Shown: positions 3,526 through 23,212, numbered from the stretch's first letter. The stretch: DNA of 34,651 nt from a virus (IMGVR_UViG_3300043443_000352:1-34651); one strand, 5' to 3'. Numbers and translations: made by a program. The notes: generated from the sequence alone by a model not told the origin.

Positions 3526-5784
3526 ATGGCAGTCAGAATTCAATTCAGACGCGGTACCGCCGCAGAGTGGGCAGCAGCAAATCCAACCCTAGCCCCTGGT
3601 GAGCTAGGTTATGAGTCAGACACTGGCTCTTTCAAGATTGGTAACGGTACAACTGCCTGGGCGTCTCTTGCTTACGGTGCAGTTGGCGAAGCATATGTAG
3701 ACAATGCTATCGCTAACGTGGTAGGACTCTCCCCAGAGACTCTAGACACCCTAGAAGAGCTTGCAGCTGCTGTAGGCAACAACCCTAACTTTGTTCAAAC
3801 GGTAACTGACATGGTTGCAGATGCTGAAGCCAACGTTGTTGCCTATACTGACAATGCCGTGGCTAGCTTGGTAAATGCAGCGCCACAAACACTAAACACA
3901 CTTTCGGAACTTTCTGCAGCTTTAAACAACGATGAGAACTTCTACCTCACGCTGCAGAACAGCATCAATGGTGTAAATACATATGCTGTTGCTTACACAG
4001 ATAATGCAATTATTCAGGTTACAGATGTTTTTAATACATCTCTAACTTTTTATGCCACGACTACTCAGCTGACCACAGCTGTTGGCGAGCACACTCAGGA
4101 CACTACAAATGTTCACGGCATATCTGATACAGCCAACCTGGTATACGCTCAAGAGTTGACTGACGCTATTTCGGTACACAATGCCGAGACATTGAACGTT
4201 CACGGTATTGCAAATACTGCAGCATTGGCAACACTATCAGACGTCACTCAGGCAGCTAACACCATAAACAACACTATCGGCGACCACACGGCCTTGACAC
4301 TTAACGTTCATGGTATTGCCGACACATCGGACTTAGTTACAGGAACAAATATTGCCACTGTGATTGCCCCCACGTTGGCTGCATATGCTACGCTCAGCTC
4401 ACCAGAGTTTACTGGAGAAGTAGTCTTACCAGCTTCAACGACTATTGGAGCAATCTCAGGTGTGGAGCTAGGTTACTTAGATAACGTGGCTTCTAATATT
4501 CAAGACCAACTAGACGCTAAGCTAGCAACTGCCAGTGCCGCAAGCATCTACGCTCCAATAGCTAACGCGGCTCTAACTGGCAATGTGTCTTTACCAGCCA
4601 CTACAACTATCGGTGACGTATCTGCAACAGAGATTAGCTACCTAAACAACGTATCTTCTGCAATTCAAACTCAGTTAGATGCGAAGGCACCAATTGCCTC
4701 TCCAACATTCACTGGAACAGTCTCTGGTATCACTGCCGCAATGGTTGGTCTAGGAGACGTCGACAACACCTCTGACCTAGACAAGCCAGTATCTAATGCA
4801 GTTCAAACAGCACTAGATCTGAAAGCTAACCTAGCCAGCCCAGTATTCACTGGCGAGGTAGAGACATCAGACCTCACAGTTACAGGCAACCTTATTGTCC
4901 AGGGAACTACAACTACAGTAAATGCTAGCGACCTTAAGCTCCGTGACAACATGATCTATCTGAACCAAGCAGGATCATCAGTTATCACTAACGCTGTAGG
5001 CGATGGCACAAATGTTGTTTACACCACTTCCGAAGCTCACGGCTATGCAGCAGGTGACTTTGTCACTGTAGCAAACGTAATCCCTACCTCGTTCAACATT
5101 TCGGGTGACGGTGAAGAGATTATTGCAGTAACTAGCAACACTTTCACTGTTGCAAGCACTGTAACTGACACCTACACAAGCGGTGGAACTGCACGCGGTA
5201 AAGTTCACTTCAATCCAGACCTCGGCTGGGCTGCTGGACGTTACGCTGACAACACCTACGCTCACGCTGGTATGTTCCGTGACGCAACTGATGGTCGATT
5301 CAAGTTCTTTGACAACTACACCCCAGAGCCAGACGAGTCAGTATTTATTGACACATCGCACGCTAGCTTTGCTTTAGCGCCTATTCAGGTTCAAAATGTA
5401 ATCACCACTGGCGTAACTACAAACTTTGTGGCTTTCTCTGACGGCACTGAGCAAACTACCGCAGGCGTCCCGTCTATAACTCAGTTCAGCACCCTAACAG
5501 GGGACTACACACTAGATTCCATCTCTAAGAAAGATGGCGTCTATGAGGTCAATAGCTCGACCCCAGTAACAATTACAATTCCAAGCAACGCAACGCTAGC
5601 TTGGCCTATCGGCGCAAGCGTTGACTTCTTACAGGTAGGTACTGGTCAGGTCACTATCAGCCCAGCTGCTGGCGTGACCTTGAACTACACCCCAGGAAAC
5701 AAGCTCAGAACGCAGTGGTCAAGCTGTACTATAATGAAACGTGGTACCGACAGCTGGGTCCTATACGGCGATTTGACAGCATAA
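3526..5784 (+). CDS. Tail fibre-like protein with Mtd-like N-terminus, 752 aa
   Basis: MAVRIQFRRGTAAEWAAANPTLAPGELGYESDTGSFKIGNG (Mtd_N-like). PETLDTLEELAAA / PQTLNTLSELSAAL motifs, SPxFTG fibre repeats, three H-x5-VHGI repeats, and C-terminal ..KLRTQWSSCTIMKRGTDSWVLYGDL domain. Confidence 0.85.
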   Translation: MAVRIQFRRGTAAEWAAANPTLAPGELGYESDTGSFKIGNGTTAWASLAYGAVGEAYVDNAIANVVGLSPETLDTLEELAAAVGNNPNFVQTVTDMVADAEANVVAYTDNAVASLVNAAPQTLNTLSELSAALNNDENFYLTLQNSINGVNTYAVAYTDNAIIQVTDVFNTSLTFYATTTQLTTAVGEHTQDTTNVHGISDTANLVYAQELTDAISVHNAETLNVHGIANTAALATLSDVTQAANTINNTIGDHTALTLNVHGIADTSDLVTGTNIATVIAPTLAAYATLSSPEFTGEVVLPASTTIGAISGVELGYLDNVASNIQDQLDAKLATASAASIYAPIANAALTGNVSLPATTTIGDVSATEISYLNNVSSAIQTQLDAKAPIASPTFTGTVSGITAAMVGLGDVDNTSDLDKPVSNAVQTALDLKANLASPVFTGEVETSDLTVTGNLIVQGTTTTVNASDLKLRDNMIYLNQAGSSVITNAVGDGTNVVYTTSEAHGYAAGDFVTVANVIPTSFNISGDGEEIIAVTSNTFTVASTVTDTYTSGGTARGKVHFNPDLGWAAGRYADNTYAHAGMFRDATDGRFKFFDNYTPEPDESVFIDTSHASFALAPIQVQNVITTGVTTNFVAFSDGTEQTTAGVPSITQFSTLTGDYTLDSISKKDGVYEVNSSTPVTITIPSNATLAWPIGASVDFLQVGTGQVTISPAAGVTLNYTPGNKLRTQWSSCTIMKRGTDSWVLYGDLTA

Positions 5785-5803
5785 AGTTAAGAGAGAGTAA
5801 CTA

Positions 5804-6718
5804 ATGGCAAAGAAAGAAGCAGGTGGAAAGTCAGCTTCTCAAAATGACTTTCTTGAGCCGAAACCGCCTATCAATGTATCAGCTACTGACGTAGGTACAA
5901 ACAGACCATATAACGATGGAGCTGCTGTTGTCTCGTTCGAGCTGTCAGCTGACTCTCCTGCAGCAACTTCTTATACTGTAAACGCCTATAAGAATGGGAG
6001 CACCTTAGATTCACAAGTTGCAACCAACACTGGGGCATCTTCACCAATTACAATTACTGGTCTAGACTCTGGGATTTCTTACACTTTTAAAGTCACTGCA
6101 TCTAACGCATCTGGAACGTCAGCCGAGTCCGCAGCTTCAAGCTCAACTCCCATAACGACAGTACCTCAAGCCCCTCAGAATGCGTCAGCTGTATCTACTG
6201 CAGCTAATCAAGACGTGATTTCGTGGTCTAACGGTGCTGACGGCGGTAAAGCAATCACTAGCACATATTTTGTATCTAGTGACCAGGCAACTAACCCTGG
6301 TCAAGTAGTTATGACTACAAATCCTTGGACAGAGGCTGAAAATGGTGGTTCAACCCAGAACTATACTCTATACCATGTAAATGCTAACGGAACTTCGCTT
6401 GGCTCTCTAACTGCTGACGTTACAACTGTTGCACCGTTCTTCCCACCATACTTCCCACCTTACTTCCCACCGTTCTTCCCTCCATACTTCCCACCATACT
6501 TCCCACCGTTCTTCCCTCCATACTTCCCACCATACTTCCCACCGTTCTTCCCTCCATACTTCCCGCCTTACTTCCCGCCTTACTTCCCGCCTTACTTCCC
6601 GCCTAGATTCCCTTACTTCCCACCTTACTTCCCACCGTTCTTCCCTCCTCGCTTTGGTGGTTACTCGATTGACCCACGAGAGCTAGACAAGTACATGTCA
6701 GAGTGGGATACCGAATAG
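5804..6718 (+). CDS. Two fibronectin type III domains plus C-terminal (PPYF/PPFF)n repeat; probable virion surface protein
   Basis: FN3 signatures PxPPxNVSA...SPITITGLDSGISYTFKVTASNASGTS and VPQAPQN...ISWS.GADGGKAIT...NANGTS, then a 74-aa Pro/aromatic repeat and a 20-aa acidic tail. Confidence 0.85.
   Translation: MAKKEAGGKSASQNDFLEPKPPINVSATDVGTNRPYNDGAAVVSFELSADSPAATSYTVNAYKNGSTLDSQVATNTGASSPITITGLDSGISYTFKVTASNASGTSAESAASSSTPITTVPQAPQNASAVSTAANQDVISWSNGADGGKAITSTYFVSSDQATNPGQVVMTTNPWTEAENGGSTQNYTLYHVNANGTSLGSLTADVTTVAPFFPPYFPPYFPPFFPPYFPPYFPPFFPPYFPPYFPPFFPPYFPPYFPPYFPPYFPPRFPYFPPYFPPFFPPRFGGYSIDPRELDKYMSEWDTE
6434..6655 (+). repeat. Coding tandem repeat: 12-bp (PPxF) units with a 36-bp higher-order period
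   Basis: 17 complete PP(Y/F/R)F tetrads plus two truncated units. The DNA unit ccgttcttccctccatacttcccaccatacttccca recurs near-perfectly. Confidence 0.95.
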
Positions 6719-6737
6719 TACTAGTAGTTAGGTATAA

Positions 6738-6771
6738 AATAAAGAGGTAGTCTTCGGACTGCCTCTTTATT
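6738..6771 (+). terminator. 15-bp stem-loop with cUUCGg tetraloop, probable intrinsic terminator
   Basis: AATAAAGAGGTAGTC-TTCG-GACTGCCTCTTTATT, with one G:U pair. It is intergenic, directly after the fibre operon, and the 3' arm ends T-rich. Confidence 0.8.
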
Positions 6772-6789
6772 ACTTAACGGGAGACTATA

Positions 6790-7398
6790 TTGCACTTTAA
6801 TCCAGTAGTTCTTAATGACGTATTTAGTAGCGAAGATGTGCAGTACCTTAGGCAGCTGCTGAACTCGAAGTCATACGCCAAGAATTGGCTAGACCCTAAT
6901 AATGATAGGAGAGTCTTAAAATTCACCGAGCTTGACTCATATTTCAGCAAAAAAATAGAGCCAATAGTTCAAGAAATATTCGGCAGTACTCGTATTAAAT
7001 CAACTTACGCGGTTTACTTAGATTACGATCGACCAACATCAAAGCTGCCAGCACATCTCGACAATAATGCTTGTACTTATACAGTTGATTATTGCGTATC
7101 TGCTAAAACCCCATGGGGGGTAGTAGTCGAGGGCGAAGAGTTTGTTTTTGGCCCAAACCAGGCTTTAGTGTTTACTGGTGGACACGATTATCACTGGCGA
7201 AACGATATGCCAGATCCAGAAAATAATAGAGTTGAAGTAATTATGTTCCACTTCTGCTTAGATGATCACTGGTACTTCACTCACGGGCAAGAGTATATGT
7301 ACGATTTAATGGACAATGGACTATTACCAGAGGGCGACTCATATCATCTAAGTCCAGCAGTTTTAGGTAGAAATCCTGTAGACTCGTCTCATGGATGA
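6790..7398 (+). CDS. 2OG-Fe(II) dioxygenase-like protein (divergent, phage type)
   Basis: TTG start after GGGAG. HxD motif (LPAHLDNNACTY) and distal His (HWR). Lacks the YLNDDYEGG motif of its neighbours. Confidence 0.7.
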   Translation: MHFNPVVLNDVFSSEDVQYLRQLLNSKSYAKNWLDPNNDRRVLKFTELDSYFSKKIEPIVQEIFGSTRIKSTYAVYLDYDRPTSKLPAHLDNNACTYTVDYCVSAKTPWGVVVEGEEFVFGPNQALVFTGGHDYHWRNDMPDPENNRVEVIMFHFCLDDHWYFTHGQEYMYDLMDNGLLPEGDSYHLSPAVLGRNPVDSSHG

Positions 7399-8122
7399 TT
7401 GGTTTACTAAAGACAGGTCAGAGACCGCAAGCAATAGGATGCCTGCTAGATATATAGGTCAAATAGAAGTATTAAATCCAGCTCTCGGTATAAATATTTA
7501 TAGAAATGCTCTGAGCGAACCTAATTGTAAAAAGTATATCTCGACTTTAGAGTCACATTTAAATGGTCAAACTCGGTTTCGTTGGAGCGGCGCTTACGTT
7601 ACTACATCAGAAGAGTTGGATTTAGAGTCTAGAAATGCTAAGGATTTTAAGTTTAATTCAACTGGTCTAGGACCGAAGACTCAAGAAACTGCTGCTCTTT
7701 ACTCTATGCATGAAGAGATTTTTCAATCCACTAGACGCTGTGTAGACGATTACGGCCAGTACTGGGGAGTAGGAATTAATTCCTACGAAGCCTTCAATTT
7801 TGTAAAATATGAAGGAGCTGGTACTCATTTTAGGATTCACGCGGATCACGGACCTACTTATGTCTCAACGACATCTATAGTTGCATACCTCAATGATGAC
7901 TATGAAGGAGGAGAGCTTTGGTTTCCTAGATTCAATTTAGTTATAAAACCAAAAGCAGGAGATATAGTGGTATTTCCATCTACTTATATCTATGAGCATG
8001 CGTCCCAGGAAATGATTAGTGGAACTAAGTACTCTGTTGTAATAATGAGTGACTATAATGATAGAGACGGCGTGAACCACAGAGTATCGCAGACGGTTAA
8101 GGAATATGAACTCAAATACTAA
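7391..8122 (+). CDS. Prolyl 4-hydroxylase-like 2OG-Fe(II) dioxygenase
   Basis: HAD...YLNDDYEGGELWF...KPKAGDIVVFPS...H-x9-K (HASQEMISGTK). Confidence 0.9.
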   Translation: MDDWFTKDRSETASNRMPARYIGQIEVLNPALGINIYRNALSEPNCKKYISTLESHLNGQTRFRWSGAYVTTSEELDLESRNAKDFKFNSTGLGPKTQETAALYSMHEEIFQSTRRCVDDYGQYWGVGINSYEAFNFVKYEGAGTHFRIHADHGPTYVSTTSIVAYLNDDYEGGELWFPRFNLVIKPKAGDIVVFPSTYIYEHASQEMISGTKYSVVIMSDYNDRDGVNHRVSQTVKEYELKY

Positions 8123-8864
8123 CGAGGTAAAGAAGGCAACTGCCACTGAAGGCCAAGCAGAGCAAGAAATGTTAAATGATCGGCTTGCTAAGTGGTACAC
8201 ACTGGACGAGATTACTTGGAGCTCTGCAGAAGAGGTTCGCCCTGGATCGGGCATCTGGGTATATCACGACGTTCTACCTAAAGATATGAACATAATCGAG
8301 CGAATCGAGGAGGTCTTGCACTCTCCAGACAACGATTACGAGTACCAAGAAGCTATGGTTGGGTACTCAATGAAGATTCCAGAGTATCGAGACTGCTATG
8401 ATTTTAAATACAAAAGACATGACTTTGACCACGATACTTCAGAGTGGGGCGACAAGCTTAGAGAGCTTGCAGACGAAACCATCTATCGACAGAAGCAGGT
8501 AGTTAAGGACTACACTCGTCGCTACAATATTGGTGAGCTGCGTTACTGGGAAGCCACAAACTATATTAAATATGGCCCAGGGCAGCACTTCCAAGAGCAC
8601 CATGATCATGGCTACTCTTACAACTGTGTAGTGTCTCTAGTTGGATATCCGAATGACGACTACGAGGGTGGAGAGCTGTACTTCAGACTTCAAAATATCA
8701 AGATTAAAGCCAGAGCGGGGGATCTGTTTATCTTCCCATCGAACTTTATGTACCCACACCGAGCAATGCCAGTAGTATCTGGAACTAAGTACTCGATGGT
8801 TACTATGTTGGACTACTCGGACAAATTCCACGGCGGTATGTTTTTGGAAGAGACAAACTCTTAA
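8106..8864 (+). CDS. Prolyl 4-hydroxylase-like 2OG-Fe(II) dioxygenase
   Basis: HHD...YPNDDYEGGELYF...AGDLFIFPSNFMYPHRAMPVVSGTKYS (H-x9-K). Confidence 0.9.
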   Translation: MNSNTNEVKKATATEGQAEQEMLNDRLAKWYTLDEITWSSAEEVRPGSGIWVYHDVLPKDMNIIERIEEVLHSPDNDYEYQEAMVGYSMKIPEYRDCYDFKYKRHDFDHDTSEWGDKLRELADETIYRQKQVVKDYTRRYNIGELRYWEATNYIKYGPGQHFQEHHDHGYSYNCVVSLVGYPNDDYEGGELYFRLQNIKIKARAGDLFIFPSNFMYPHRAMPVVSGTKYSMVTMLDYSDKFHGGMFLEETNS

Positions 8865-8867
8865 AAC

Positions 8868-9629
8868 ATGAAGAAGTTTGCTGTACAAAAAACCCACCCA
8901 GGAGCAGCCCACATAGAGCAGCTACCTGGAACTAGGGAGTGGATGAATGAGACCCAAGAAAAGCACGCTTACATGTGCTTTCCGCTATCTCTGACCAATC
9001 GACTAGGCTGGGGTATATCTTTTCCCGAAGATATTTCATTCATTTGGGACGGCATAACTGACACAACTCCAGATCACATAAAAATATTAAGTGGACAAAA
9101 ATACGTAAGCACTGTCCGAGGAAACGCAACTATTAGTTTTTATTCTGGATTGCTAGTTAGGACAGATCCAGAAACAAGCACACTGACTATGCCAGTGCCG
9201 AACCTTTTTGTCAGAGGTGCTCAATGTTATACAACGCTGATTAGCACCTCGTTTTATATGCCAGAACTTCCTCTTGCTTGGAGAGTTACGGAACCAAACG
9301 TAGTCATAACAATCCCAGCGGGACAACCAATAGCTGCGATCCTGCCAATTTCGTTGACGTCATTGCAAGAAGATTACGTTTTAGAGTTGGATGAAACTCC
9401 GCTTGGAACCGAATACTGGGATGAAGTCAAAAAGTATGGCGACGAGGCTGAAATAAAAAATGGTGTTGGCGATTGGTCAAAAATGTATAGAGATGCAGTC
9501 AACTACAGAGGAGAGCAAGTGGGCCAGCACGAAACAAAGTCTATTAAATTAAAAACTGTGCACTGCCCATTTACTGGCCAGACATATGAAGTAGAGGACA
9601 CCGAGGCTAGTGGACACGCAGAAGATTAA
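8868..9629 (+). CDS. DUF6065-like protein of unknown function
   Basis: REWM..T..KHAYMCFPLSLTNRLGWGI.FP.DI.FIWDG and IPAGQPIAAILPI recall DUF6065. Recognised from memory; needs an HMM check. Confidence 0.6.
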   Translation: MKKFAVQKTHPGAAHIEQLPGTREWMNETQEKHAYMCFPLSLTNRLGWGISFPEDISFIWDGITDTTPDHIKILSGQKYVSTVRGNATISFYSGLLVRTDPETSTLTMPVPNLFVRGAQCYTTLISTSFYMPELPLAWRVTEPNVVITIPAGQPIAAILPISLTSLQEDYVLELDETPLGTEYWDEVKKYGDEAEIKNGVGDWSKMYRDAVNYRGEQVGQHETKSIKLKTVHCPFTGQTYEVEDTEASGHAED

Positions 9630-10350
9630 ATTTGTAAAAAATAGGCCATGGCTAAATGAGGAAAGTTCTTCTGTACCTTCTCCAATAATCAAAACCCTAC
9701 CTAACTGGTACAGGAAAGCTGACAGGTTTGCAACTAATCCAGCAACAGGGAAGCCATGGGAGATGCCAGATGGTAGCGGAAAGATCCCAACTTGGAAGGC
9801 TTGTCCAGCGGTCTTCGACATTATGGGCAGCGGATACGTCTATAAGACCCCCTGTGACATAGAGGTTTTTATCGATACCATGGGTATGGTTCAGATAAAA
9901 ATAGAAGACGAGCGCAGCAAAGATTTTATCCAAGAGCGATCGCCAATGCCTCAGTTCAAGCACCCTCACGGGTACCATGATAAGCACTTTGCTTGGTGGG
10001 CAGACTGGGCAGTAGAACTACCTGAAGGCTACAGTGCGCTATATACTCAGCCGTTTAATAGGTACGAACTGCCATTTTTGACCACTAGCGGAATTATTGA
10101 TAATGACAAAGTTAAGCTTCCTGGAACTATGCCATTCTTTATCATTAAAGGATTCACGGGGGTCATCCCTGCTGGCACACCATATGCTCAGATATTGCCA
10201 TTTAAGCGTGAACACTGGGAGTCCGAGGTAGATCTCGAAATATCACCCCAGGAAATGATGGAAAAGAATCGTTTAAATAGCGAGAAATACCGCCAACCAG
10301 ATGGCGGAATCTACATCAAAGAAGTCTGGGAACGCAGAAAATACGAATAG
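9610..10350 (+). CDS. Conserved phage protein, DUF6065-related (possible dUTPase-like beta fold)
   Basis: GTG start overlapping the upstream gene. LPNWY...TWKACPAVFD.MGSGY...LPEGYSALYTQPFNR..LPF.T.SGIIDND...IPAGTPYAQILPFKRE. Shares the IPAGxP..xILP tail with the preceding gene. Confidence 0.6.
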   Translation: MDTQKIKFVKNRPWLNEESSSVPSPIIKTLPNWYRKADRFATNPATGKPWEMPDGSGKIPTWKACPAVFDIMGSGYVYKTPCDIEVFIDTMGMVQIKIEDERSKDFIQERSPMPQFKHPHGYHDKHFAWWADWAVELPEGYSALYTQPFNRYELPFLTTSGIIDNDKVKLPGTMPFFIIKGFTGVIPAGTPYAQILPFKREHWESEVDLEISPQEMMEKNRLNSEKYRQPDGGIYIKEVWERRKYE

Positions 10351-10357
10351 GTATAAT
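10350..10357 (+). promoter_or_regulatory. GGTATAAT -10 element, probable leaderless promoter
   Basis: TATAAT at 10352-10357, 6 nt before ATG 10364, with no Shine-Dalgarno between. Confidence 0.6.
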
Positions 10358-10363
10358 ATAACC

Positions 10364-11050
10364 ATGATGGATCAAACTTCTACAGACTACACAAATAGGC
10401 ATGACGATCTTAGGGCTTCAATAACTCCGTCAGGATTTTTTGGAGACTCTGCAGACAATATCATCACAATTGAAGACTTCATGACCGAAGAAGAGTTGAC
10501 AATCCTCAACGAGTTTGCGAGACGCAATACAGAATGGGATAAAACAGAAACTCACTATAATGAGGATGGTACGGTTATCTATGACTCAGGATACTGGGAA
10601 GATAGAGTAGCCACTGCAACTACGTTAGACAAAGTGGACCCTAGAATTACGCAAATAATTATCGGAATGCAAGCGCGTCTAAAAGAGAGAGTAGACGCGT
10701 TTTTCGATGTTGATGCTAGAGCAACTAGTCCAGCCATTGTTAGGTGGCTACCTGGACAACTACAAATGCCGCATGCCGATAAGGAGTTGCACGAGGGGGA
10801 AGGTAGGGGTAAGCCTAATGACTTTCCTTACTACGATATTGCTGGCTTGTTCTATATAAACGATGACTACGTTGGCGGCGAGTTGTATTTTCCGAACCAG
10901 GGAATTCAATTCAAGCCTAAAGCTGGAGCAGCTTACTTTTTCCCTGGAGATATGAATTACATTCACGGAGTTAGTCCAATAGAGTCTGGCATTAGGTATA
11001 CCGTGCCATTTTTCTGGACTATCGTGAAACATAACGTCTCTAAAGGGTAG
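10364..11050 (+). CDS. Prolyl 4-hydroxylase-like 2OG-Fe(II) dioxygenase
   Basis: HAD...YINDDYVGGELYFP...KPKAG...H-x9-R (HGVSPIESGIR). Start moved from 10301 to ATG 10364, which removes a 50-nt overlap and fits the -10 box. Confidence 0.88.
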   Translation: MMDQTSTDYTNRHDDLRASITPSGFFGDSADNIITIEDFMTEEELTILNEFARRNTEWDKTETHYNEDGTVIYDSGYWEDRVATATTLDKVDPRITQIIIGMQARLKERVDAFFDVDARATSPAIVRWLPGQLQMPHADKELHEGEGRGKPNDFPYYDIAGLFYINDDYVGGELYFPNQGIQFKPKAGAAYFFPGDMNYIHGVSPIESGIRYTVPFFWTIVKHNVSKG

Positions 11051-11053
11051 TTT

Positions 11054-11740
11054 ATGAAAGTAATCGCCCACAAACCAGACGTCTATGAGGTTGAGAACTT
11101 CCTCTCCACAGATGAAGTAAGCAGCCTAATCGCATATTTTGAGTCAGACAAGGACTCATGGCAGCAAACTTGTTTCTATAACGCTAGAGTTATGGACCCG
11201 ATAGCGCCGTGGCAGGCTGGAAAATCTTTATCTATTGATGAAGATTATATGAAAAATCTCAGATTTAAACTACAGAGTCTGGCAGAAGAGCTGTTTTCTA
11301 AAGAGCTAAAAAACCTTAGCCTGAGTGCCCACAAGTGGTTAGAAGGTGCTTTTGCTGACTATCACTCTGACAACACAGAGCTAGACGGTACACCTAATGC
11401 TTGGCGAGAAAATAAGCTAGTTACAATAATCTACTTAAATGATGATTATTCTGGCGGTGATTTAATTTTCAGGGACCACCCTATAAAGATATCCCCTAAG
11501 GCTGGGACTGTTGTAGTTTTTGATGTCGGCATAGAAAACGTCCATGGAGTGACTGAGGTTACAGCTGGTAGCAGGTGGACAATGCTAGCTTCATTCGACT
11601 ACGCAGATTCAACGTACCCTGAAGATTACTGGGAACAAAAGAGACTAGAATTAGAGGAAACAGCTAAAATCCATCAGCAACAGCGCCAGGAATGGGAGAC
11701 TGAGGGTATGCCAGAAGAAAGAGTTCTGAGGAGCGAATAA
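11054..11740 (+). CDS. Prolyl 4-hydroxylase-like 2OG-Fe(II) dioxygenase
   Basis: HSD...YLNDDYSGGDL...HGVTEVTAGSR (H-x9-R). Charged helical C-terminal tail. Confidence 0.9.
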   Translation: MKVIAHKPDVYEVENFLSTDEVSSLIAYFESDKDSWQQTCFYNARVMDPIAPWQAGKSLSIDEDYMKNLRFKLQSLAEELFSKELKNLSLSAHKWLEGAFADYHSDNTELDGTPNAWRENKLVTIIYLNDDYSGGDLIFRDHPIKISPKAGTVVVFDVGIENVHGVTEVTAGSRWTMLASFDYADSTYPEDYWEQKRLELEETAKIHQQQRQEWETEGMPEERVLRSE

Positions 11741-11742
11741 TC

Positions 11743-12477
11743 ATGCTAGATAAATCAACCTTCGTGGTCTACAGAGACGAGCCGACAACAGTAAATAAGC
11801 TTGGCGTCACTCAAAATCGAATCGTGGAAATCCCTGACTTTGTTGATAGGGAAACTGCTGCAAAGATGATTGATTTTTTTGAGGCCCGCAGCGACCTCTG
11901 GGGCGATGTAGCTTTCTACAAGTCAAGTGGCATGGGTATTGCCCCAGAAGACCCCAATATTGAAAAAGTGGGCCTACCACCCAGGTTCTTTGAGACACTG
12001 ACAAAAAGATTTCAAGAAGCTGTAGGTGAAGTTTTTGGTAGACCAGTAAAACCAAACACGTCACACGCGCAAAAATGGGAAGTTGGCGGATTTGCATCGC
12101 CACATTCCGACAACTCAGATTTTGATGGAAATCCTACCCTATTCGAGATTAATAAATACGTAGGAATCTTGTACCTCAATGACGAGTATGAGGGCGGTAA
12201 TCTTTTCTTCACGAAAACCGACAACATCAACGAGAAAACTTTAACAATAACCCCTAAGGCTGGGTCCTACATTATCTTCCCTGGTGGTATTGAAAACATT
12301 CACGGTGTCGAAGAGGTTACGGATGGCGTACGTTATACAATGGTTTCTTTCTGGGATTTTGCCGAGGCAGAGTATAGCGAGGAGCGACAGGCCGAGTGGG
12401 CTGCAGAGCGCGAAAGAGTAGAAGCCGAGAAGGCTGCAGCTAGAGAAGAATGGGCCAGGGGCAATAAATGGGCATAA
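11743..12477 (+). CDS. Prolyl 4-hydroxylase-like 2OG-Fe(II) dioxygenase
   Basis: HSD...YLNDEYEGGNL...HGVEEVTDGVR (H-x9-R). Confidence 0.9.
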   Translation: MLDKSTFVVYRDEPTTVNKLGVTQNRIVEIPDFVDRETAAKMIDFFEARSDLWGDVAFYKSSGMGIAPEDPNIEKVGLPPRFFETLTKRFQEAVGEVFGRPVKPNTSHAQKWEVGGFASPHSDNSDFDGNPTLFEINKYVGILYLNDEYEGGNLFFTKTDNINEKTLTITPKAGSYIIFPGGIENIHGVEEVTDGVRYTMVSFWDFAEAEYSEERQAEWAAERERVEAEKAAAREEWARGNKWA

Positions 12478-13253
12478 ACTTAGCAGATTCACTAGAAGAA
12501 CTTCACCCACAAGTATGGGTTTTTCGTGGAGCTATTAAAAATCCTGAAAAATTGATGGAAAACTTGAAGGCTTTACCTAACTGGCAACCCTGGTGGGTCT
12601 TCGGCCTAATCAATGATGAGCTGGGTGGGCCAGATAGCACTTGGGAGAATTTCCCAAATGACGAACAATGGCAAGAGCACATAACATCTTTGCGTCAAAC
12701 GAAGCACCCAGAGCTGACAGCCGAAATTGATAACTATTTCTACGAAGCTACAAAGTTATACGTAGAACATCACGGGTTCGAGCTAGACAACTGGGTACAT
12801 CAAACCCCTTCGGTCTGCTTATATAAGTCAGACGCTGGAGTTACCAGTGAGATGACAATGCACTACCACACTGACTGGCAGCCAGAGAAGGCAGAGTCAC
12901 GAGGTACTAAGTTTAGATTGACTTGCACTATGTATCTAAACGACGACTACGATGGTGGCGAGTTAGCATTCATTATCCGTGAAAATAGGGATGACCCATC
13001 TAACGATTTCAAGTTTGATTATAAACCTACAGCAGGCGATATCCTAGTCTTTCCGTCAACAGAACCTTTTTATCATGGAGTAAAACCACTAACTAATGGA
13101 GATAGATTCTTTATTAGAAACTTTTGGCTAGAGTATTTTCCTGGCACCCCTGAATGGTTAGAGGGAGAAGCACTGCACGGCGAAGAGGCTTGGGCCGAGA
13201 TGGAGAAAAAGAGAGAGCACGAGTTCATCTCTTCTCGTAGAACGGTTGAATAG
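12468..13253 (+). CDS. Prolyl 4-hydroxylase-like 2OG-Fe(II) dioxygenase
   Basis: HTD...YLNDDYDGGEL...HGVKPLTNGDR (H-x9-R). Confidence 0.9.
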   Translation: MGINLADSLEELHPQVWVFRGAIKNPEKLMENLKALPNWQPWWVFGLINDELGGPDSTWENFPNDEQWQEHITSLRQTKHPELTAEIDNYFYEATKLYVEHHGFELDNWVHQTPSVCLYKSDAGVTSEMTMHYHTDWQPEKAESRGTKFRLTCTMYLNDDYDGGELAFIIRENRDDPSNDFKFDYKPTAGDILVFPSTEPFYHGVKPLTNGDRFFIRNFWLEYFPGTPEWLEGEALHGEEAWAEMEKKREHEFISSRRTVE

Positions 13254-14044
13254 TGGACAACTTAGATCCTAGAATAAAGGTGTACAAAGGACTAATTAAA
13301 GATCCGCAAAACCTAATACAAGAGATTGAAAATAACGCCACTTGGGATAAGTGGTGGATTTTTGGAAAAATGGCTCAAGGCGTGTGTCCTCCAGAGCAGT
13401 GGGATAACTTTCCAACAGAGGAACAGTGGCAGCAACACTTAGATCAATTAGAGAGAGATCAATCTAATAGCAACCTAAAAAACGCTGTCCTTGAGATTAA
13501 AAAATATTTCTATTTAGCCACCAAAGACTACGTGGAGACTCAGGGGTTCGACCTAGACAACTGGATTATGGACTCGCCGTCCTTTAATGTGTATGAGCCT
13601 AATCCAGAAGAGCAGACTGGACCTATAACAATGTCATTTCACACGGACTGGCAGTTCGAGAAGCAGGAAGCCAGGGGAGATAAGTTTAAGCTAACTTGCA
13701 CTATGTATCTAAATGATGACTACGAAGGTGCCGAGCTTGCTTTTGTTGTCACAGACGCCCCTAACGATCCAAGTACGTATAAATTAGTCAAATTCAAGCC
13801 ATCCGCGGGGGATGTAGTTGTGTTCCCATCTACTCCTCCCTACTATCACGGGGTAACTAAGCTGGTTTCGGGCTCCAGATATATCATTAGAACCTTCTGG
13901 CTAGAGCACTTTCCTGGGACACCAGAGTGGCTAGAAGGAGAAGCTCTCCACGGGGAAGAGGCATGGGCTGAGCTTCAAAAAGAGGTAGAAAAAGCTAAGA
14001 TCCACGATGCCCCTAGAATACAAGATTGGCATTTAGATTTATAA
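13253..14044 (+). CDS. Prolyl 4-hydroxylase-like 2OG-Fe(II) dioxygenase, close paralogue of 12468..13253
   Basis: GTG start overlapping the upstream TAG. HTD...YLNDDYEGAEL...HGVTKLVSGSR. Shares FPGTPEWLEGEALHGEEAWAE exactly with the upstream gene. Confidence 0.9.
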   Translation: MDNLDPRIKVYKGLIKDPQNLIQEIENNATWDKWWIFGKMAQGVCPPEQWDNFPTEEQWQQHLDQLERDQSNSNLKNAVLEIKKYFYLATKDYVETQGFDLDNWIMDSPSFNVYEPNPEEQTGPITMSFHTDWQFEKQEARGDKFKLTCTMYLNDDYEGAELAFVVTDAPNDPSTYKLVKFKPSAGDVVVFPSTPPYYHGVTKLVSGSRYIIRTFWLEHFPGTPEWLEGEALHGEEAWAELQKEVEKAKIHDAPRIQDWHLDL

Positions 14045-14078
14045 TTGTAAGGTCACCCTCACCATTAAAGGATTATAA

Positions 14079-14789
14079 ATGAGTAACGCAGTAGAGCAGC
14101 AGACTAGAGAAATAGTTTGGCTAAAAGATGATGTTGCCACATTCCCTGGGTTTATGGACAAAGAGCAGTGCGAGCAGATTATTGCTTTTTTCGAAGATCA
14201 GGGCGTTAACGAGGGTCACTGGATGCAGACCTGCTTTTACGATTCTAAAGGAATGGCACTTGTATCCAGCGAGGATGCCTTGAGTAGATCTGGACTAGAA
14301 GAGCGTCGCAAGGACTACTTTGAATGGCTGCGCCTAGAAATTAAGGCCGCTATTGAACAAGCTTTCGGTCGAGAAGTCAAGACAAACTCTACTCACGCGC
14401 AACTCTGGCCAACAGGGTCATTTGCTAGGTGGCATTCAGACAACTCTGATATTGAGGGAAATCCTACGGCATGGAGTGACAACAAGTTTGCTAGCATCCT
14501 CTACTTAAACGACAACTACGAAGGTGGAGACTTAGTATTTAGGGACCACGATCTAAGGGTTAAGCTTCCTCAGGGGAGCCTGATTACTTTCCCAGGTGGA
14601 ATCAACAACGTTCACATGGTTGAAGAGATTACATCTGGCGATAGAATTACAGTAGTAGGATTCTGGGATTTCGCAGACTCCTACTACACCCCCGAAGAAT
14701 TAGACGCCCGCCAAGCTGAGGTAGCCTTCGAAAGAATTCTACAGACAGAGCAAAAAGCTCTATGGCATCAAGGAAATAGCAATGCCTAA
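14079..14789 (+). CDS. Prolyl 4-hydroxylase-like 2OG-Fe(II) dioxygenase
   Basis: RBS AAGGA. HSD...YLNDNYEGGDL...HMVEEITSGDR. Shares WxQTCFY and HSDN..xxGxP.AW..NK with 11054..11740. Confidence 0.9.
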   Translation: MSNAVEQQTREIVWLKDDVATFPGFMDKEQCEQIIAFFEDQGVNEGHWMQTCFYDSKGMALVSSEDALSRSGLEERRKDYFEWLRLEIKAAIEQAFGREVKTNSTHAQLWPTGSFARWHSDNSDIEGNPTAWSDNKFASILYLNDNYEGGDLVFRDHDLRVKLPQGSLITFPGGINNVHMVEEITSGDRITVVGFWDFADSYYTPEELDARQAEVAFERILQTEQKALWHQGNSNA

Positions 14790-15426
14790 TTTAGATTTTG
14801 CCAAGGCAGAATTCTTTGCCGAAAAAATTCTAGTTATGAAAAATGTCTTAACTCAAGAAGAAGCAGACATGGTGATTGATTATCACAAAAACATGGATGC
14901 TTTTCTGGGGGAGGAAGACAATCAAATCATCAAAAAGCTAGAGCCATGGAAGACATCTTCTATAGACCACCCGCACGTATATGGAACAAAGCGATCCGCC
15001 GAGTGGTCACCAGCTAGAGCTAACAACACTACAGATCTTAGAGTTCTGGGGTATTTTAATTGGGTAAAAGATTTATTCTACAAAGTAGGAGAGTTTTACC
15101 ACGAATCTCTAGGCATAGACTATGAAAATGGCGCTCACTGGACTGACTTCTCTACGTTTCAATACACTAACGGACAAGAGATGGGCCCACACGTCGACTA
15201 TGACGGCGAGCCATATCTAGCCCCTGTAGCAACTGGATTGCTGTACCTAAATAGTGACAAAAAGGGTGGAGATCTTTATTTCAAAGATCAAGATGTTTTT
15301 GTCGAGTCTTCAATGGGGACTTTAGTAATTTTTCCTTGCGTCAAGCCATTTTTTCACCAATCTACCTTAATCACCGAGGGCGAGAAGTACCACATTGGAA
15401 CTGCCTGGAAGCGCTCAATGGGCTAA
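14782..15426 (+). CDS. Prolyl 4-hydroxylase-like 2OG-Fe(II) dioxygenase
   Basis: MGPHVD...YLNSDKKGGDLYF...HQSTLITEGEK (H-x9-K). Confidence 0.88.
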   Translation: MPNLDFAKAEFFAEKILVMKNVLTQEEADMVIDYHKNMDAFLGEEDNQIIKKLEPWKTSSIDHPHVYGTKRSAEWSPARANNTTDLRVLGYFNWVKDLFYKVGEFYHESLGIDYENGAHWTDFSTFQYTNGQEMGPHVDYDGEPYLAPVATGLLYLNSDKKGGDLYFKDQDVFVESSMGTLVIFPCVKPFFHQSTLITEGEKYHIGTAWKRSMG

Positions 15427-15435
15427 GATAGCCTT

Positions 15436-16035
15436 ATGGCTAATCTAACCCCTGAAGTTTTTCATCAGAGAATTTTTTACTATAAAGACATAGTAAGTAA
15501 TCCAAAAGCTCTAGTAGACCTCATAGAATCTACTGATCCACTTCTAACTAGCTCGGATGCCTTTTTTTCGTGGAAAAAATGGACTGCTTCCGACGACGAG
15601 TCATACGTATTTGGTTATCAAAAACAAGTAGACGCCGCTAAGCTCGCAACCAGTTCACTCGAAATACAAGAACTATATAAAACATTGATGGATGCACTGA
15701 CTAGTGCTGGACGCCACTACTGTGAGACATTAGGGCTAGAGTACTTTCCGCCATCACCACTAAGTATTTCGAAATACATAAAAGGCGGCTCGATGGGACC
15801 ACATGTGGATGAATATCCTGGTCAAACAAAAGAGCCAGTAATGTCTGGTGTAATTTATCTTAATGATGATTGCGTTGGAGGGGAGCTAGATTTCCCGCAG
15901 CAAGGGGTGAGAATTAAACCAGAAGCAGGAAGCATTGTAATTTTCCCCTCCGTAAAACCTTTTTATCATCAATCACTTGAGATAGTCTCAGGGGAGAAGT
16001 ACATGTCACCAGTATTTTGGATAAAAAATAACTAA
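15436..16035 (+). CDS. Prolyl 4-hydroxylase-like 2OG-Fe(II) dioxygenase
   Basis: MGPHVD...YLNDDCVGGELDFP...HQSLEIVSGEK (H-x9-K). Confidence 0.9.
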   Translation: MANLTPEVFHQRIFYYKDIVSNPKALVDLIESTDPLLTSSDAFFSWKKWTASDDESYVFGYQKQVDAAKLATSSLEIQELYKTLMDALTSAGRHYCETLGLEYFPPSPLSISKYIKGGSMGPHVDEYPGQTKEPVMSGVIYLNDDCVGGELDFPQQGVRIKPEAGSIVIFPSVKPFYHQSLEIVSGEKYMSPVFWIKNN

Positions 16036-16616
16036 CTTTTTTGCATTTTGTCTGGATTATTTACAAACAAAGTTAAGCCATACCTGATACCAGAAGTCAC
16101 CTGTCGTACACCGTGCTCATACAGCGCTGCAGCAGAGTGGATTACTAGCATTCCTCGTTTTGGTTTTATCTCTAAGCCAAGCTTCGAGTAGTAGAGCTGA
16201 CCACCTTCATAGTAGTCATTTATATAAATAACTACCCCATGAGCTACTGGCAGATCCAGTTCTGGAGGCCCCATGTCATCATGGGCAGGCAGGCTTTGGC
16301 CAGGCATCGTTCTGTTTAGTGGACCAACGCCTTTTTCAAAAGCTAACTCAATTTCGCCAGCAGATAGAGGTTTAATTGTTTCAACATATTCACCAATAAC
16401 CCTTGAAAGGATCTGAGAGAGCTTCTCGCTGGCTGGGAGAAATAGGTTCCTACCACCCCAAGTGCCAGTATCCATTGTGTTGCCAGATTCTCCAGCCCAT
16501 GTATTTTCTAGGTTTGCTTTTTCAATTTCGGCGTCTAGATACGCGAGCTCTTCACTTGACAAAAATAGCTCATTTACGTATATTTCTAAGTCAGGACCGA
16601 ACGGTTGAGTCAACAT
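16032..16616 (-). CDS. Prolyl 4-hydroxylase-like 2OG-Fe(II) dioxygenase (opposite strand)
   Basis: HDD...YINDYYEGGQLYY...KPKRG...HGVRQVTSGIR. Its stop overlaps the stop of the convergent gene. Confidence 0.88.
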   Translation of the reverse strand: MLTQPFGPDLEIYVNELFLSSEELAYLDAEIEKANLENTWAGESGNTMDTGTWGGRNLFLPASEKLSQILSRVIGEYVETIKPLSAGEIELAFEKGVGPLNRTMPGQSLPAHDDMGPPELDLPVAHGVVIYINDYYEGGQLYYSKLGLEIKPKRGMLVIHSAAALYEHGVRQVTSGIRYGLTLFVNNPDKMQKS

Positions 16617-22405: not shown

Positions 22406-23212
22406 ATGGCATACATTGGCATTGAGGTAACATCTAATACGCCGTACTCGGTGCAAGTTAACTGCGTAGCTGGTAACGACTTAGGTGGCGCTGTTGACTG
22501 CTATTTCTATATGAATGGTGCTCAGATAGCATACTACCAATTGGCTAAAACCCAATCGATGCTTCAGTACTTAGTGACAGTGAATACTCAGCCTTCTACC
22601 CAGTACACCTTCTCGTCTATGCTAATCGGAGCAACATCTGGCACCCTCTACAATTCATACTCGACAACAGTCACAACCCCCGCACCGCCGCCTCCGTTCT
22701 TTCCCCCGTATTTTCCGCCGTATTTTCCACCATTTTTTCCACCATACTTCCCGCCTTACTTCCCGCCATTCTTTCCACCGTATTTTCCGCCCAATCCATC
22801 GTGGATTACTAGAATTTTGGCTAACACGGATGGCAACTTAGTGGAGGGTCAACCTTTCTCGGATGGGGTCTCGGCCAACTACGTTAATACTTACGCAATC
22901 TACTCTGGCTCGCTGCCAGCAGGTCTATCGCTTAACGCTTCTACTGGAGTGGTCTCTGGAACTCCAGCCCAGGGATCAGCTGGATCGTACAGCTTTGTGA
23001 TAAGTGCTAGCGGTGATGGCGGAACTATCTACACAAACACCTTGTACTTAACTGTGCTAGACGATGGCGGTAAGCTACGCGTCTACAACACAGCTACTTC
23101 CCAGTGGGAGGAGTCAACGGTGTACGTATATAACTCCAATACTTCCCAGTGGGAAGAAGGCAAGGTGTATGTATACAACAGCGCCACAGCCACCTGGGAT
23201 AAGTCCCAGTAG
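22406..23212 (+). CDS. Virion surface protein: FN3-like domain, (PPYF/PPFF)n repeat, putative Ig (He_PIG-like) domain and three VYN..W repeats
   Basis: QPSTQYTF..VTT (FN3-like), PPPPFFPPYF..., SGSLPAGLSLNASTGVVSGTP (putative Ig motif), three C-terminal VYNxxTxxW repeats. RBS AGGA. Confidence 0.8.
   Translation: MAYIGIEVTSNTPYSVQVNCVAGNDLGGAVDCYFYMNGAQIAYYQLAKTQSMLQYLVTVNTQPSTQYTFSSMLIGATSGTLYNSYSTTVTTPAPPPPFFPPYFPPYFPPFFPPYFPPYFPPFFPPYFPPNPSWITRILANTDGNLVEGQPFSDGVSANYVNTYAIYSGSLPAGLSLNASTGVVSGTPAQGSAGSYSFVISASGDGGTIYTNTLYLTVLDDGGKLRVYNTATSQWEESTVYVYNSNTSQWEEGKVYVYNSATATWDKSQ
22685..22792 (+). repeat. Second coding PPxF repeat (8 tetrads)
   Basis: PP-PPFF-PPYF-PPYF-PPFF-PPYF-PPYF-PPFF-PPYF-PP, encoded with mixed TTT/TTC, TAT/TAC and all four Pro codons. 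Confidence 0.95.

What the first reader, a model, noticed from the sequence alone, without database searches (positions are those of the whole stretch)
5804..16616. Candidate virion-protein modification system: a (PPYF/PPFF)n protein directly followed by twelve 2OG-Fe(II) dioxygenases
Seen: an FN3 protein ending in 74 residues of only Pro, Phe, Tyr and two Arg sits immediately upstream of about 10 kb holding 12 dioxygenases and 2 DUF6065-like genes. All 12 keep the HxD...H triad. The array is flanked on the other side by collagen-like fibres and a second PPxF protein, and two glycosyltransferases lie downstream. Established: P4H-family enzymes act on polyproline-II substrates (plant extensins, collagens, chlorovirus PBCV-1 Pro-rich repeats), hydroxyproline is a glycosylation acceptor, and aquatic phages carry multiple 2OG oxygenases with mostly unknown substrates. 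Inference: this is a substrate-plus-tailoring cluster that hydroxylates Pro and/or Tyr/Phe in the repeat, possibly followed by glycosylation or Tyr cross-linking, giving an extensin-like modified virion surface. A less likely reading is RiPP-like, with the repeat as a multi-core precursor, but no protease or transporter is visible.
Basis: partly seen in the sequence, partly recalled or inferred. Interest (0 to 1): 0.92.

Follow-up and report, generated by a model that had tools for sequence, protein, structure and literature searches.

The report
Phage proline polymer and its hydroxylases
An uncultured phage, likely of actinobacteria, has a fibre-region protein ending in a 74-residue proline/phenylalanine/tyrosine polymer directly before twelve iron-oxygenase genes; in related phages the polymer's spelling tracks which enzyme is present, so the enzymes likely hydroxylate its prolines, a predicted collagen-style modification of a probable virion protein.

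Summary
Observation confirmed: FN3 gene 5804-6718 ends in 74 P/F/Y/R residues, followed by 12 intact 2OG-Fe(II) dioxygenase genes and two dUTPase-fold DUF6065-type genes. Repeat and array travel together both ways (33 of 37 homologue loci; 50 of 50 and 40 of 41 in reverse tests), in two lineages with shuffled gene order. This scan found the same module before on other genomes. Beyond co-location, tested here: (1) lone-proline units (F-P-x-F) occur almost only where the 7391-type enzyme is present (109 of 111 loci agree, five independent pairs; none in 57 loci of the lineage without it); (2) the conserved core pairs a P4H-like enzyme (8106) with a P3H1-like one (10301); (3) close relatives insert a PF11397 GlcNAc-transferase (Skp1-hydroxyproline family) between repeat and enzymes. 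Best reading (0.6): the array hydroxylates the repeat's prolines on a virion fibre protein, sometimes followed by GlcNAc. No chemistry or virion location is shown. Collagen fibres, the window's downstream glycosyltransferases and Tyr cross-linking are not supported; DUF6065-type genes also stand alone in bacteria. No cultured phage with the module and no paper on it was found. In passing: a conserved +1 frameshift in one lineage's repeat genes.

The parts
5804..6718 (+). FN3 protein with C-terminal Pro/Phe/Tyr repeat; proposed substrate
   Evidence: PF00041; weak PHROG tail hits, E 6e-4 and 1e-3; 33 of 37 homologue loci carry a repeat and the array
6434..6655 (+). Repeat tract, 74 aa: 17 PP[Y/F/R]F units and one lone-Pro unit (F-P-Y-F)
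6739..6770 (+). 14-bp hairpin with UUCG loop; likely terminator or mRNA stabiliser between repeat gene and array
   Evidence: z -6.1 for 6715-6795; not listed by the terminator scan; hairpins of -12 kcal or better after the repeat gene in 95 of 174 lineage-I loci against 18 of 174 controls
6790..7398 (+). Divergent 2OG-Fe(II) oxygenase (family 11 here), accessory
   Evidence: phrog_2954 only; H89-x-D91...H135; 5 of 111 lineage-I loci, all Tyr-rich
7391..8122 (+). P4H-like oxygenase, paralogue '0c' (Lys 2OG ligand); predicted to serve lone prolines
   Evidence: PF13640; co-varies with F-P-x-F units
8106..8864 (+). P4H-like oxygenase, core family 0 (Lys 2OG ligand)
   Evidence: family profile's best solved match is a bacterial prolyl 4-hydroxylase, 3itq, E 3.6e-6; family 0 in 110 of 110 arrays
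8868..9629 (+). DUF6065, dUTPase fold, invariant R23 W25 H33 Y35 C37 P39 N44; core
   Evidence: pLDDT 91; Z 10.4, rmsd 4.6, 119 aligned with 1dun_A
9610..10350 (+). Second DUF6065-like paralogue (phrog_7084) with invariant Cys65; 60 of 110 arrays; also alone in bacteria
10301..11050 (+). P3H1-like oxygenase, core family 1 (Arg ligand)
   Evidence: family profile's best solved match is human prolyl 3-hydroxylase 1, E 1.9e-8; 108 of 110 arrays
11054..11740 (+). Oxygenase, family 2 (ENVHGV)
11743..12477 (+). Oxygenase, family 2 (ENIHGV), P3H1-like
   Evidence: only solved match P3H1, E 3e-10
12468..13253 (+). Oxygenase, family 4, accessory
13253..14044 (+). Oxygenase, family 4 (50% identical to 12468), accessory
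14079..14789 (+). Oxygenase, family 2, accessory
14782..15426 (+). Oxygenase (Lys ligand), rare family 17, accessory
15436..16035 (+). Oxygenase (Lys ligand), family 6, accessory
16032..16616 (-). Oxygenase on the opposite strand, rare family 21, accessory
22406..23212 (+). Second repeat protein: 36-aa PP[F/Y]F tract (nt 22685-22792) between an N-terminal domain and an Ig domain; likely second substrate
   Evidence: like proteins in L076, L094

Best explanation
The 5804 gene and the array behind it form one conserved module, and the enzymes likely hydroxylate the prolines of the Pro/Phe repeat on what is probably a virion fibre-associated protein. Shown: the genes, intact Fe/2OG sites, the two-way linkage, the co-variation of lone-Pro units with 7391, and the family resemblances. 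Inferred steps: the repeat is an exposed, extended tail; 8106 (P4H-like) would hydroxylate one Pro of each Pro-Pro pair; 10301 and the family-2 enzymes (P3H1-like) would hydroxylate the other, by analogy with 3Hyp-4Hyp in collagen; 7391 would serve lone prolines (F-P-x-F); the accessory enzymes may reach further positions or other fibre proteins; the dUTPase-fold pair are helpers whose invariant Cys suggests chemistry of their own. Relatives that carry a PF11397 enzyme would then add GlcNAc to hydroxyproline; this fragment has none. The likely result is a water-compatible, stiffened or decorated fibre surface from a very hydrophobic polymer.
For: Linkage: 33 of 37 loci of 5804 homologues carry a repeat with the array downstream, the four others are distant FN3 matches without repeat; reverse, 50 of 50 loci of 9610 relatives with 4 kb upstream, 40 of 41 viral and 31 of 34 metagenome loci of 8106-family genes with 5 kb upstream (the misses are one contig whose repeat lies further up, found twice, and two arrays that run to a contig end). 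The triplet family 0 + family 1 + DUF6065 persists in two lineages with different order and different carrier proteins. Co-variation: 102 loci have 7391-type and lone-Pro units, 7 neither, 1 and 1 discordant; 57 of 57 lineage-II loci have neither; units 814 lone of 1953 with the enzyme, 2 of 136 and 0 of 968 without; five independent pairs on the carrier protein's own tree all agree; null simulation 1/25337 to 5/242. Nearest solved relatives are P4H and P3H1. PF11397 genes, 19-58% identical, lie within 1 kb of a repeat in 12 of 17 hits. Virion context: fibre genes on both sides; repeat fused to Peptidase_S74, PASTA, Hint in relatives.
Against: No chemistry, expression or virion proteomics. The PDB matches are weak and cover the shared core only; P3H1 acts on Pro-4Hyp-Gly (PMC7619536) and the repeat has no Gly. 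The co-variation was picked after a scan of many trait pairs; the sign tests give p 0.25 and 0.0625; the window's own tract has just one lone-Pro unit. Both DUF6065-type genes occur alone in bacterial genomes without repeat. Syn9 has such an array with no Pro/Phe tract in 45 kb. In PBCV-1, which encodes an active P4H, no hydroxyproline was found in virions (PMC7019647). Twelve enzymes exceed what a four-letter repeat needs. The hairpin may uncouple repeat gene and array. 14 of 64 repeat loci have no array within the flank.
Confidence: 0.6

Rival explanations
1. The repeat is the substrate, but the main chemistry is on Phe/Tyr/His (beta- or ring-hydroxylation, cross-links) rather than on Pro.
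For: Phe is as invariant as Pro; position 3 varies (F, Y, H, W, S, N, R); the 6790 family occurs in lineage I only with Tyr-rich repeats, 5 of 5; families 9, 3b, 3d go with Tyr in lineage II; weak match of 11054 to the peptide maturase YhhC, far below cut-off.
Against: 13 of 18 Tyr-rich lineage-I loci lack the 6790 family; the Tyr and His associations follow clades and were not tree-tested; core enzymes resemble prolyl hydroxylases.
Confidence: 0.12
2. The enzymes make a small molecule or alter host surface or host proteins (as proposed for cyanophage arrays), and the repeat only binds, scaffolds or travels with them.
For: Iyer 2010 and the jumbo-phage review propose metabolite or capsule roles for cyanophage arrays; arrays here often hold a glutathione peroxidase (80 of 252), SDR (45), sulfotransferase (10), carbamoyltransferase (4); stand-alone bacterial DUF6065-type genes.
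Against: Does not explain why lone-Pro units follow one enzyme or why polypeptide GlcNAc-transferases sit beside the repeat.
Confidence: 0.14
3. RiPP-like: the repeat is a precursor that is modified, cut out and released as peptides.
For: Basic N-termini (172 of 267 carriers have 3 or more K/R in 20 residues) and often C-terminal repeats (91 of 267 end within 5 residues); a Hint domain behind the repeat in some relatives (L002, below cut-off) could self-cleave.
Against: No protease, transporter or leader-binding family among the window's genes or the common array passengers; carriers are FN3, Ig, PASTA and long fibre proteins, with internal repeats in 68 of 267; fusion to the fibre chaperone S74 (L071).
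Confidence: 0.07
4. The collagen-like fibres next door are the main substrates.
For: Collagen ORFs flank the array in this window; P4H and P3H are collagen enzymes; Iyer 2010 proposed collagen-like substrates for bacterial operons.
Against: Collagen-like ORFs in only 18 of 125 loci of 14 kb or more; DSL-LC01 has several collagen fibres and no array in that block.
Confidence: 0.04
5. Mere inherited synteny in an accessory-gene hot spot.
For: All loci are related phages; 7391-type is the first gene after the repeat in 94 of 103 loci.
Against: Order and carriers differ between lineages; the enzyme-negative loci fall in five separate places on the carrier tree.
Confidence: 0.03

Closest known systems
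Tandem dioxygenase array of Synechococcus phage Syn9, gp41-gp54 (Iyer et al. 2010, PMC2938197; passages read)
   Same: Ten or more divergent dioxygenases in tandem, a dUTPase-fold protein with a conserved Cys (Syn9 gp43 matches 9610 and the DUF6065 profiles), placed right behind tail-fibre genes.
   Different: No Trp halogenase or JmjC gene here; Syn9 has no Pro/Phe tract and no close member of core families 0 or 1; its neighbours are Gly-rich fibre proteins; the paper proposed secondary metabolites.
Chlorovirus PBCV-1 prolyl 4-hydroxylase (PMC7019647; passages read)
   Same: A viral prolyl hydroxylase active on Pro-containing peptides.
   Different: One enzyme in a eukaryotic virus, role unknown, no hydroxyproline found in virions; here a battery bound to one repeat, with P3H-like members.
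Collagen P4H + P3H1 system (PMC7619536, PMC11381544; passages read)
   Same: A P4H-like and a P3H-like enzyme together; Pro-Pro pairs in the proposed substrate; R669 and W675 equivalents in 10301 and 11743.
   Different: Single-domain cytoplasmic phage enzymes; the substrate lacks Gly, whereas P3H1 needs Pro-4Hyp-Gly.
Protist Skp1 pathway: prolyl 4-hydroxylase then hydroxyproline GlcNAc-transferase; CAZy GT60 (PMC8724618; passages read)
   Same: PF11397 genes sit between repeat gene and P4H-like genes in the window's close relatives.
   Different: Optional (17 hits, none in this fragment); the family also holds Ser/Thr mucin-type transferases, so a Hyp acceptor is not certain.
Mycobacteriophage virion glycosylation (Freeman et al. 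2023; seen only as a reference in PMC12582341, not held)
   Same: Phage-encoded modification of virion proteins in actinobacteriophages.
   Different: Glycosyltransferases without a hydroxylase battery or dedicated repeat (recalled).

Membership tests
2OG-Fe(II) dioxygenase (PF13640) | HxD...H triad and a distal basic 2OG ligand | tested here: met
   12 of 12
2OG-Fe(II) dioxygenase (PF13640) | Pfam gathering cut-off | tested here: met
   11 of 12; 6790 has only a PHROG match
Prolyl 4-hydroxylase | Lys as 2OG ligand (feature recalled) and nearest solved relative a P4H | tested here: inconclusive
   Lys invariant in family 0; best match 3itq at only E 3.6e-6; 8106 alone matches LH3 best, E 0.003
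Prolyl 4-hydroxylase | Forms 4-hydroxyproline in peptides | not testable with these tools
   needs an assay
Prolyl 3-hydroxylase (P3H1/leprecan) | Catalytic-core likeness with R669 and W675 equivalents | tested here: met
   other array members match other structures
Prolyl 3-hydroxylase (P3H1/leprecan) | Pro-4Hyp-Gly substrate and multidomain architecture | tested here: not met
   repeat has no Gly; enzymes are 228-249 aa against 736; so 'P3H-like', not a member
Syn9-type dioxygenase array | Tandem multi-family dioxygenases plus a dUTPase-fold Cys protein | tested here: met
Syn9-type dioxygenase array | Tryptophan halogenases and a JmjC gene | tested here: not met
   no such Pfam hit among the 14 array genes; the record is a fragment, 30% complete
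Trimeric dUTPase | Fold | tested here: met
   8868 model: Foldseek E 6e-5, Z 10.4
Trimeric dUTPase | Five catalytic motifs, dUTP hydrolysis | not tested
   identity to dUTPases 8-18%; motifs not mapped
RiPP | Protease, transporter or leader-recognition element in the cluster | tested here: not met
   none among window genes or common array passengers
Plant extensin | Ser-Pro4 and Tyr-X-Tyr motifs (recalled) | tested here: not met
   absent from the tract
Virion structural protein (5804) | Presence in the particle | not testable with these tools
   only context and weak PHROG tail hits

The most novel reading that the evidence does not exclude
A widespread phage 'peptide-polymer tailoring' system: a portable Pro/Phe tag is grafted onto different virion proteins (FN3, PASTA, Ig, long fibres), and a matched enzyme set writes 4-Hyp, 3-Hyp and optional O-GlcNAc onto it, the tag's sequence grammar co-evolving with the enzymes. 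It would be a prokaryotic-virus counterpart of collagen and Skp1 hydroxylation-glycosylation with no Gly triplet, and would name a substrate for a large class of orphan phage oxygenases.
Probability: 0.4. Interest if true: 0.9.

Novelty: new variant of a known kind. Interest (0 to 1): 0.78.

Why it matters
Aquatic phages carry long arrays of 2OG-Fe(II) oxygenases whose substrates have been open since at least 2010 (PMC2938197). Here the genomes point to a specific, synthesisable substrate and give enzyme-by-enzyme predictions (8106 on Pro-Pro, 7391 on lone Pro, 10301 after 8106, PF11397 after hydroxylation). About 1100 stored IMG/VR stretches hold the repeat pattern, so the module is common. 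If true it adds proline hydroxylation to known phage virion modifications, removes these genes from the 'auxiliary metabolic' bin, and offers small single-domain P3H- and P4H-type enzymes for Gly-free peptides.

Tried and rejected
Single-sequence fold of 8868 failed (pLDDT 32.6); repeated with a 117-row alignment. Complex prediction of 8106 with the repeat gave no verdict (score 0.05); not used. No RNA holder was listed; not used. Alignment A1 was too diverse for locus scans. tblastn against 50,697 cultured phage records found no match for 5804 or 8868, and only partial cyanophage matches for 8106 and 11743. Sigma-70 promoter scan was at chance level (20 against 20.0). Tyr-, His-, Cys- and Trp-specific enzymes were looked for: associations follow clades and were not accepted. 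The first tree test mis-scored L012, whose 7391-type gene was hidden by an overlong ORF call; redone. PF11397 search of the window found nothing, but its control rang nowhere either; tblastn also found none. No background rate of PF11397 genes in unselected phages was obtained (4 cultured records match). No solved structure for 6790, the 9610 profile or the PF11397 protein. Literature searches with no description of the module: DUF6065, 0 papers; 0; 0; subscription journals and bioRxiv supplements are not covered, and the supplement of PMC2938197 was not read.
Full report
Observation. The finding is in the sequence as described. ORF 5804-6718 encodes an FN3 domain and a 74-residue run of Pro 36, Phe 24, Tyr 12, Arg 2, spelled with three Pro codons. 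Fourteen ORFs follow in 6790-16616: eleven PF13640 members above cut-off, one divergent member known only to PHROGs (6790), DUF6065 (8868) and its paralogue 9610. All twelve keep HxD...H and a distal Lys (7391, 8106, 14782, 15436) or Arg. Most pairs are 23-50% identical, so this is a collection of old families, not a recent amplification. A 14-bp UUCG hairpin separates repeat gene and array. The record is a linear virus fragment, 30% complete by CheckV. Its primase is closest to Microbacterium jumbo phages (47%) and Actinomycetia phage DSL-LC01 (55% over 66% of the length), so an actinobacterial host is likely.

Linkage, forward. Of 37 IMG/VR loci with a relative of the repeat-free part of 5804, 33 have a Pro/Phe repeat in that protein (one, L010, out of frame) and the array downstream; the other four are distant FN3 matches with no repeat and at most one array gene. 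The third letter varies: PPFF, PPYF, PPHF, PPWF, PSFC, PNFC. A DNA pattern for (PP[F/Y]F)3PP is held by about 1100 stored stretches. Of the 80 loci of that scan fetched with flanks, 64 had 5 kb downstream, and 50 of 64 had two or more oxygenases or a DUF6065-type gene in the locus; most misses are long fibre proteins with a second, short tract.

Linkage, reverse. Among the best 80 of 583 relatives of 9610 (49-79% identical), 66 have a same-strand tract upstream: 50 of 50 with 4 kb of room, and all 14 misses have under 2.2 kb. A DNA pattern for the 8106 family, blind to the repeat (80 loci each), gave 40 of 41 viral and 31 of 34 metagenome loci with 5 kb upstream. Two misses are one contig whose tract lies further up (L425); two are rearranged arrays that reach a contig end. 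These sets overlap and are kin, so they show a module, not a function.

Core and accessories. Clustering 1175 distinct oxygenases shows two lineages. Lineage I, with the window, reads repeat-0c-0a-DUF6065-9610 type-1a. Lineage II reads repeat-1b-0b-DUF6065-3a, often on PASTA-like or other FN3 carriers. In 110 arrays chosen for having DUF6065 and dereplicated at 90%, family 0 is in 110, family 1 in 108, the 9610 type in 60, family 2 in 57. The family-0 profile matches best a bacterial prolyl 4-hydroxylase (3itq, E 3.6e-6; that it is the Bacillus anthracis enzyme, and that Lys marks P4Hs, is recalled). The family-1 profile and 11743 match best human P3H1 (E 1.9e-8, 3e-10), with equivalents of R669 and W675 (PMC11381544, passages). 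Other members match other structures, so the P3H1 match is not generic, but all matches are weak and cover the core only. In collagen, 3-hydroxylation follows 4-hydroxylation in Pro-4Hyp-Gly (PMC7619536, passages); a P4H-like plus P3H-like pair beside a Pro-Pro polymer fits that logic, although the repeat has no Gly.

Repeat spelling follows one enzyme. A scan of five repeat features against all subfamilies turned up one association inside lineage I that is not a single clade: lone-proline units (F-P-x-F) with the second family-0 paralogue, 0c, the 7391 type. Rescored on 179 loci with an untruncated repeat and 2.3 kb downstream, dereplicated at 92% to 111: both 102, neither 7, units without enzyme 1 (L403), enzyme without units 1 (L385). 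All 57 dereplicated lineage-II loci have neither. By units: 814 lone of 1953 with the enzyme; 2 of 136 and 0 of 968 without. On the core-enzyme tree (FastTree, long branches flagged) there are five changes of the enzyme and four starred pairs, 3.3 agreeing, none opposing, p 0.25. On a tree of the carrier's own N-terminal part (96 rows; 15 left out for short or different N-termini, among them L403 and L672), the six enzyme-negative loci fall in five places, five starred pairs, 4.9 agreeing, none opposing, p 0.0625, the floor for five pairs; this speaks against one co-transferred block. Simulating the trait independently on the tree, four or more of six enzyme-negative groups lacked it in 1/25337, 4/17519, 2/6466 and 5/242 qualifying runs at 4, 6, 10 and 20 expected changes; observed five of six. 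The trait was chosen after the scan, and the window's tract has only one such unit. Losing one Pro codon in a tandem repeat should be easy (inference), so its near-absence without 0c suggests selection tying repeat to enzyme.

Glycosylation. The window's own downstream genes are not part of the module: homologues of 31346 and 33873 occur in 11 and 1 of 252 repeat-plus-array loci, and DSL-LC01 has collagen fibres and a 64% homologue of 33873 but no tract, oxygenase or DUF6065 in its 39-kb block. Collagen-like ORFs occur in 18 of 125 loci of 14 kb or more. However, close relatives of the window (L005, L006, L359, L361, L372, L616) carry a PF11397 GlcNAc-transferase between repeat gene and 0c. 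In all, 17 hits (about 14 distinct), 19-58% identical, eight more confirmed by Pfam; 12 of 17 lie within 1 kb of a tract, 3 within 3 kb, 2 have no tract in the locus; nine relatives of the lineage-II copy all lie 0.7-0.9 kb behind a tract. That this family holds the Skp1 hydroxyproline GlcNAc-transferase is partly recalled; PMC8724618 (passages) describes the Skp1 Hyp glycan and GT60, which also has Ser/Thr-directed members. All these loci were selected for repeat or array, so there is no background rate. The window lacks the gene.

DUF6065. The 8868 model (pLDDT 91) has the dUTPase fold. Invariant in 117 sequences are R23, W25, H33, Y35, C37, P39, N44, G47, N112; 9610 shares the Cys. This is the dUTPase-fold Cys protein that Iyer et al. 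saw in Syn9 (gp43). Against a repeat-dedicated role: 23 proteobacterial contigs hold 65-75% identical copies of 9610 with no tract, oxygenase or 8868-type gene in the flank, 0 of 5 such genomes hold the repeat pattern, and two bacterial DUF6065 genes stand beside a regulator gene.

Virion location is inferred only: fibre genes on both sides (Mtd_N, collagen), weak PHROG tail hits, and fusion of the repeat to Peptidase_S74 (L071), PASTA (L062) and a Hint-like domain (L002, below cut-off). A caution from the nearest viral precedent: PBCV-1 encodes an active P4H, yet no hydroxyproline was detected in its virions (PMC7019647, passages).

Mechanism and odds. Best reading, 0.6: proline hydroxylation of the repeat on a virion fibre-associated protein, by a P4H-like/P3H-like core, a lone-Pro specialist and optional GlcNAc transfer. 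Rivals: other targets with the repeat as passenger or scaffold 0.14; Phe/Tyr chemistry 0.12; RiPP-like release 0.07; collagen 0.04; bare synteny 0.03.

Novelty. Tandem phage dioxygenase arrays are known (PMC2938197; PMC7824862, passages) but were read as metabolite or capsule systems. No paper on this repeat or on DUF6065 was found, and no cultured phage has 5804 or 8868 homologues. This scan reported the same module on other genomes, nine distinct notes; two word look-ups for the GlcNAc-transferase link and for the frameshift returned nothing. I class it as a new variant of a known kind, interest 0.78: it makes a long-open question directly testable, but nothing biochemical is shown.

Noticed in passing
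L093:3379-3817 and about 35 other loci (e.g. L053, L083, L087, L089, L108, L116, L117); not in the window: PASTA-like repeat genes of lineage II carry a conserved +1 shift at CGG-A/T, at two different Gly positions in two subfamilies. Of repeat frames with no in-frame ATG, 28 of 29 in lineage II link to an ATG frame this way, 0 of 6 in lineage I; controls with in-frame ATG 1 of 38 and 0 of 28. Core enzymes show shifts only in two error-rich contigs. Reading CGGA as one step opens the ORF. Likely a programmed +1 frameshift gating the repeat.
   Followed up: partly
window 9610-10350; L435-L457: The 9610 gene is 65-75% identical to stand-alone genes of mostly gammaproteobacterial genomes, closer than to many phage copies; suggests gene exchange and a cellular role for this dUTPase-fold Cys protein.
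   Followed up: partly
L361:1095-2123, L308:2508-3446, L008:2102-3289 and others: PF11397 GlcNAc-transferases next to repeat genes in several lineages; four cultured Xanthomonas and Stenotrophomonas jumbo phages hold distant homologues.
   Followed up: yes
L297:403-1002 and 79 more of 252 loci: A glutathione-peroxidase-like gene is the commonest passenger of the arrays; SDR in 45. Could protect the iron enzymes from peroxide (speculation). Absent from the window's array.
   Followed up: no
L494 (Syn9) 3856-7328: The Syn9 array follows Gly-rich fibre proteins gp36, gp38, gp39; these may be the analogous substrates of its oxygenases and halogenases.
   Followed up: no
window 6739-6770: Strong UUCG hairpin after the repeat gene; similar hairpins are enriched there in both lineages (95 of 174 and 25 of 78, against 18 and 6 controls).
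   Followed up: partly
L007-L017, L028: One clade has Cys-containing repeats (PSFC, PNFC, PAFC), and many carriers end in Cys-rich tails.
   Followed up: no
window 16556-16584: Near-consensus sigma-70 promoter (11 of 12) inside the minus-strand oxygenase, facing 16718 and the collagen genes.
   Followed up: no
window 23277-27764: 1495-aa collagen fibre with a long BNR/propeller-like C-terminal part (DUF6242, sortilin weak hits), a likely receptor-binding tip.
   Followed up: no
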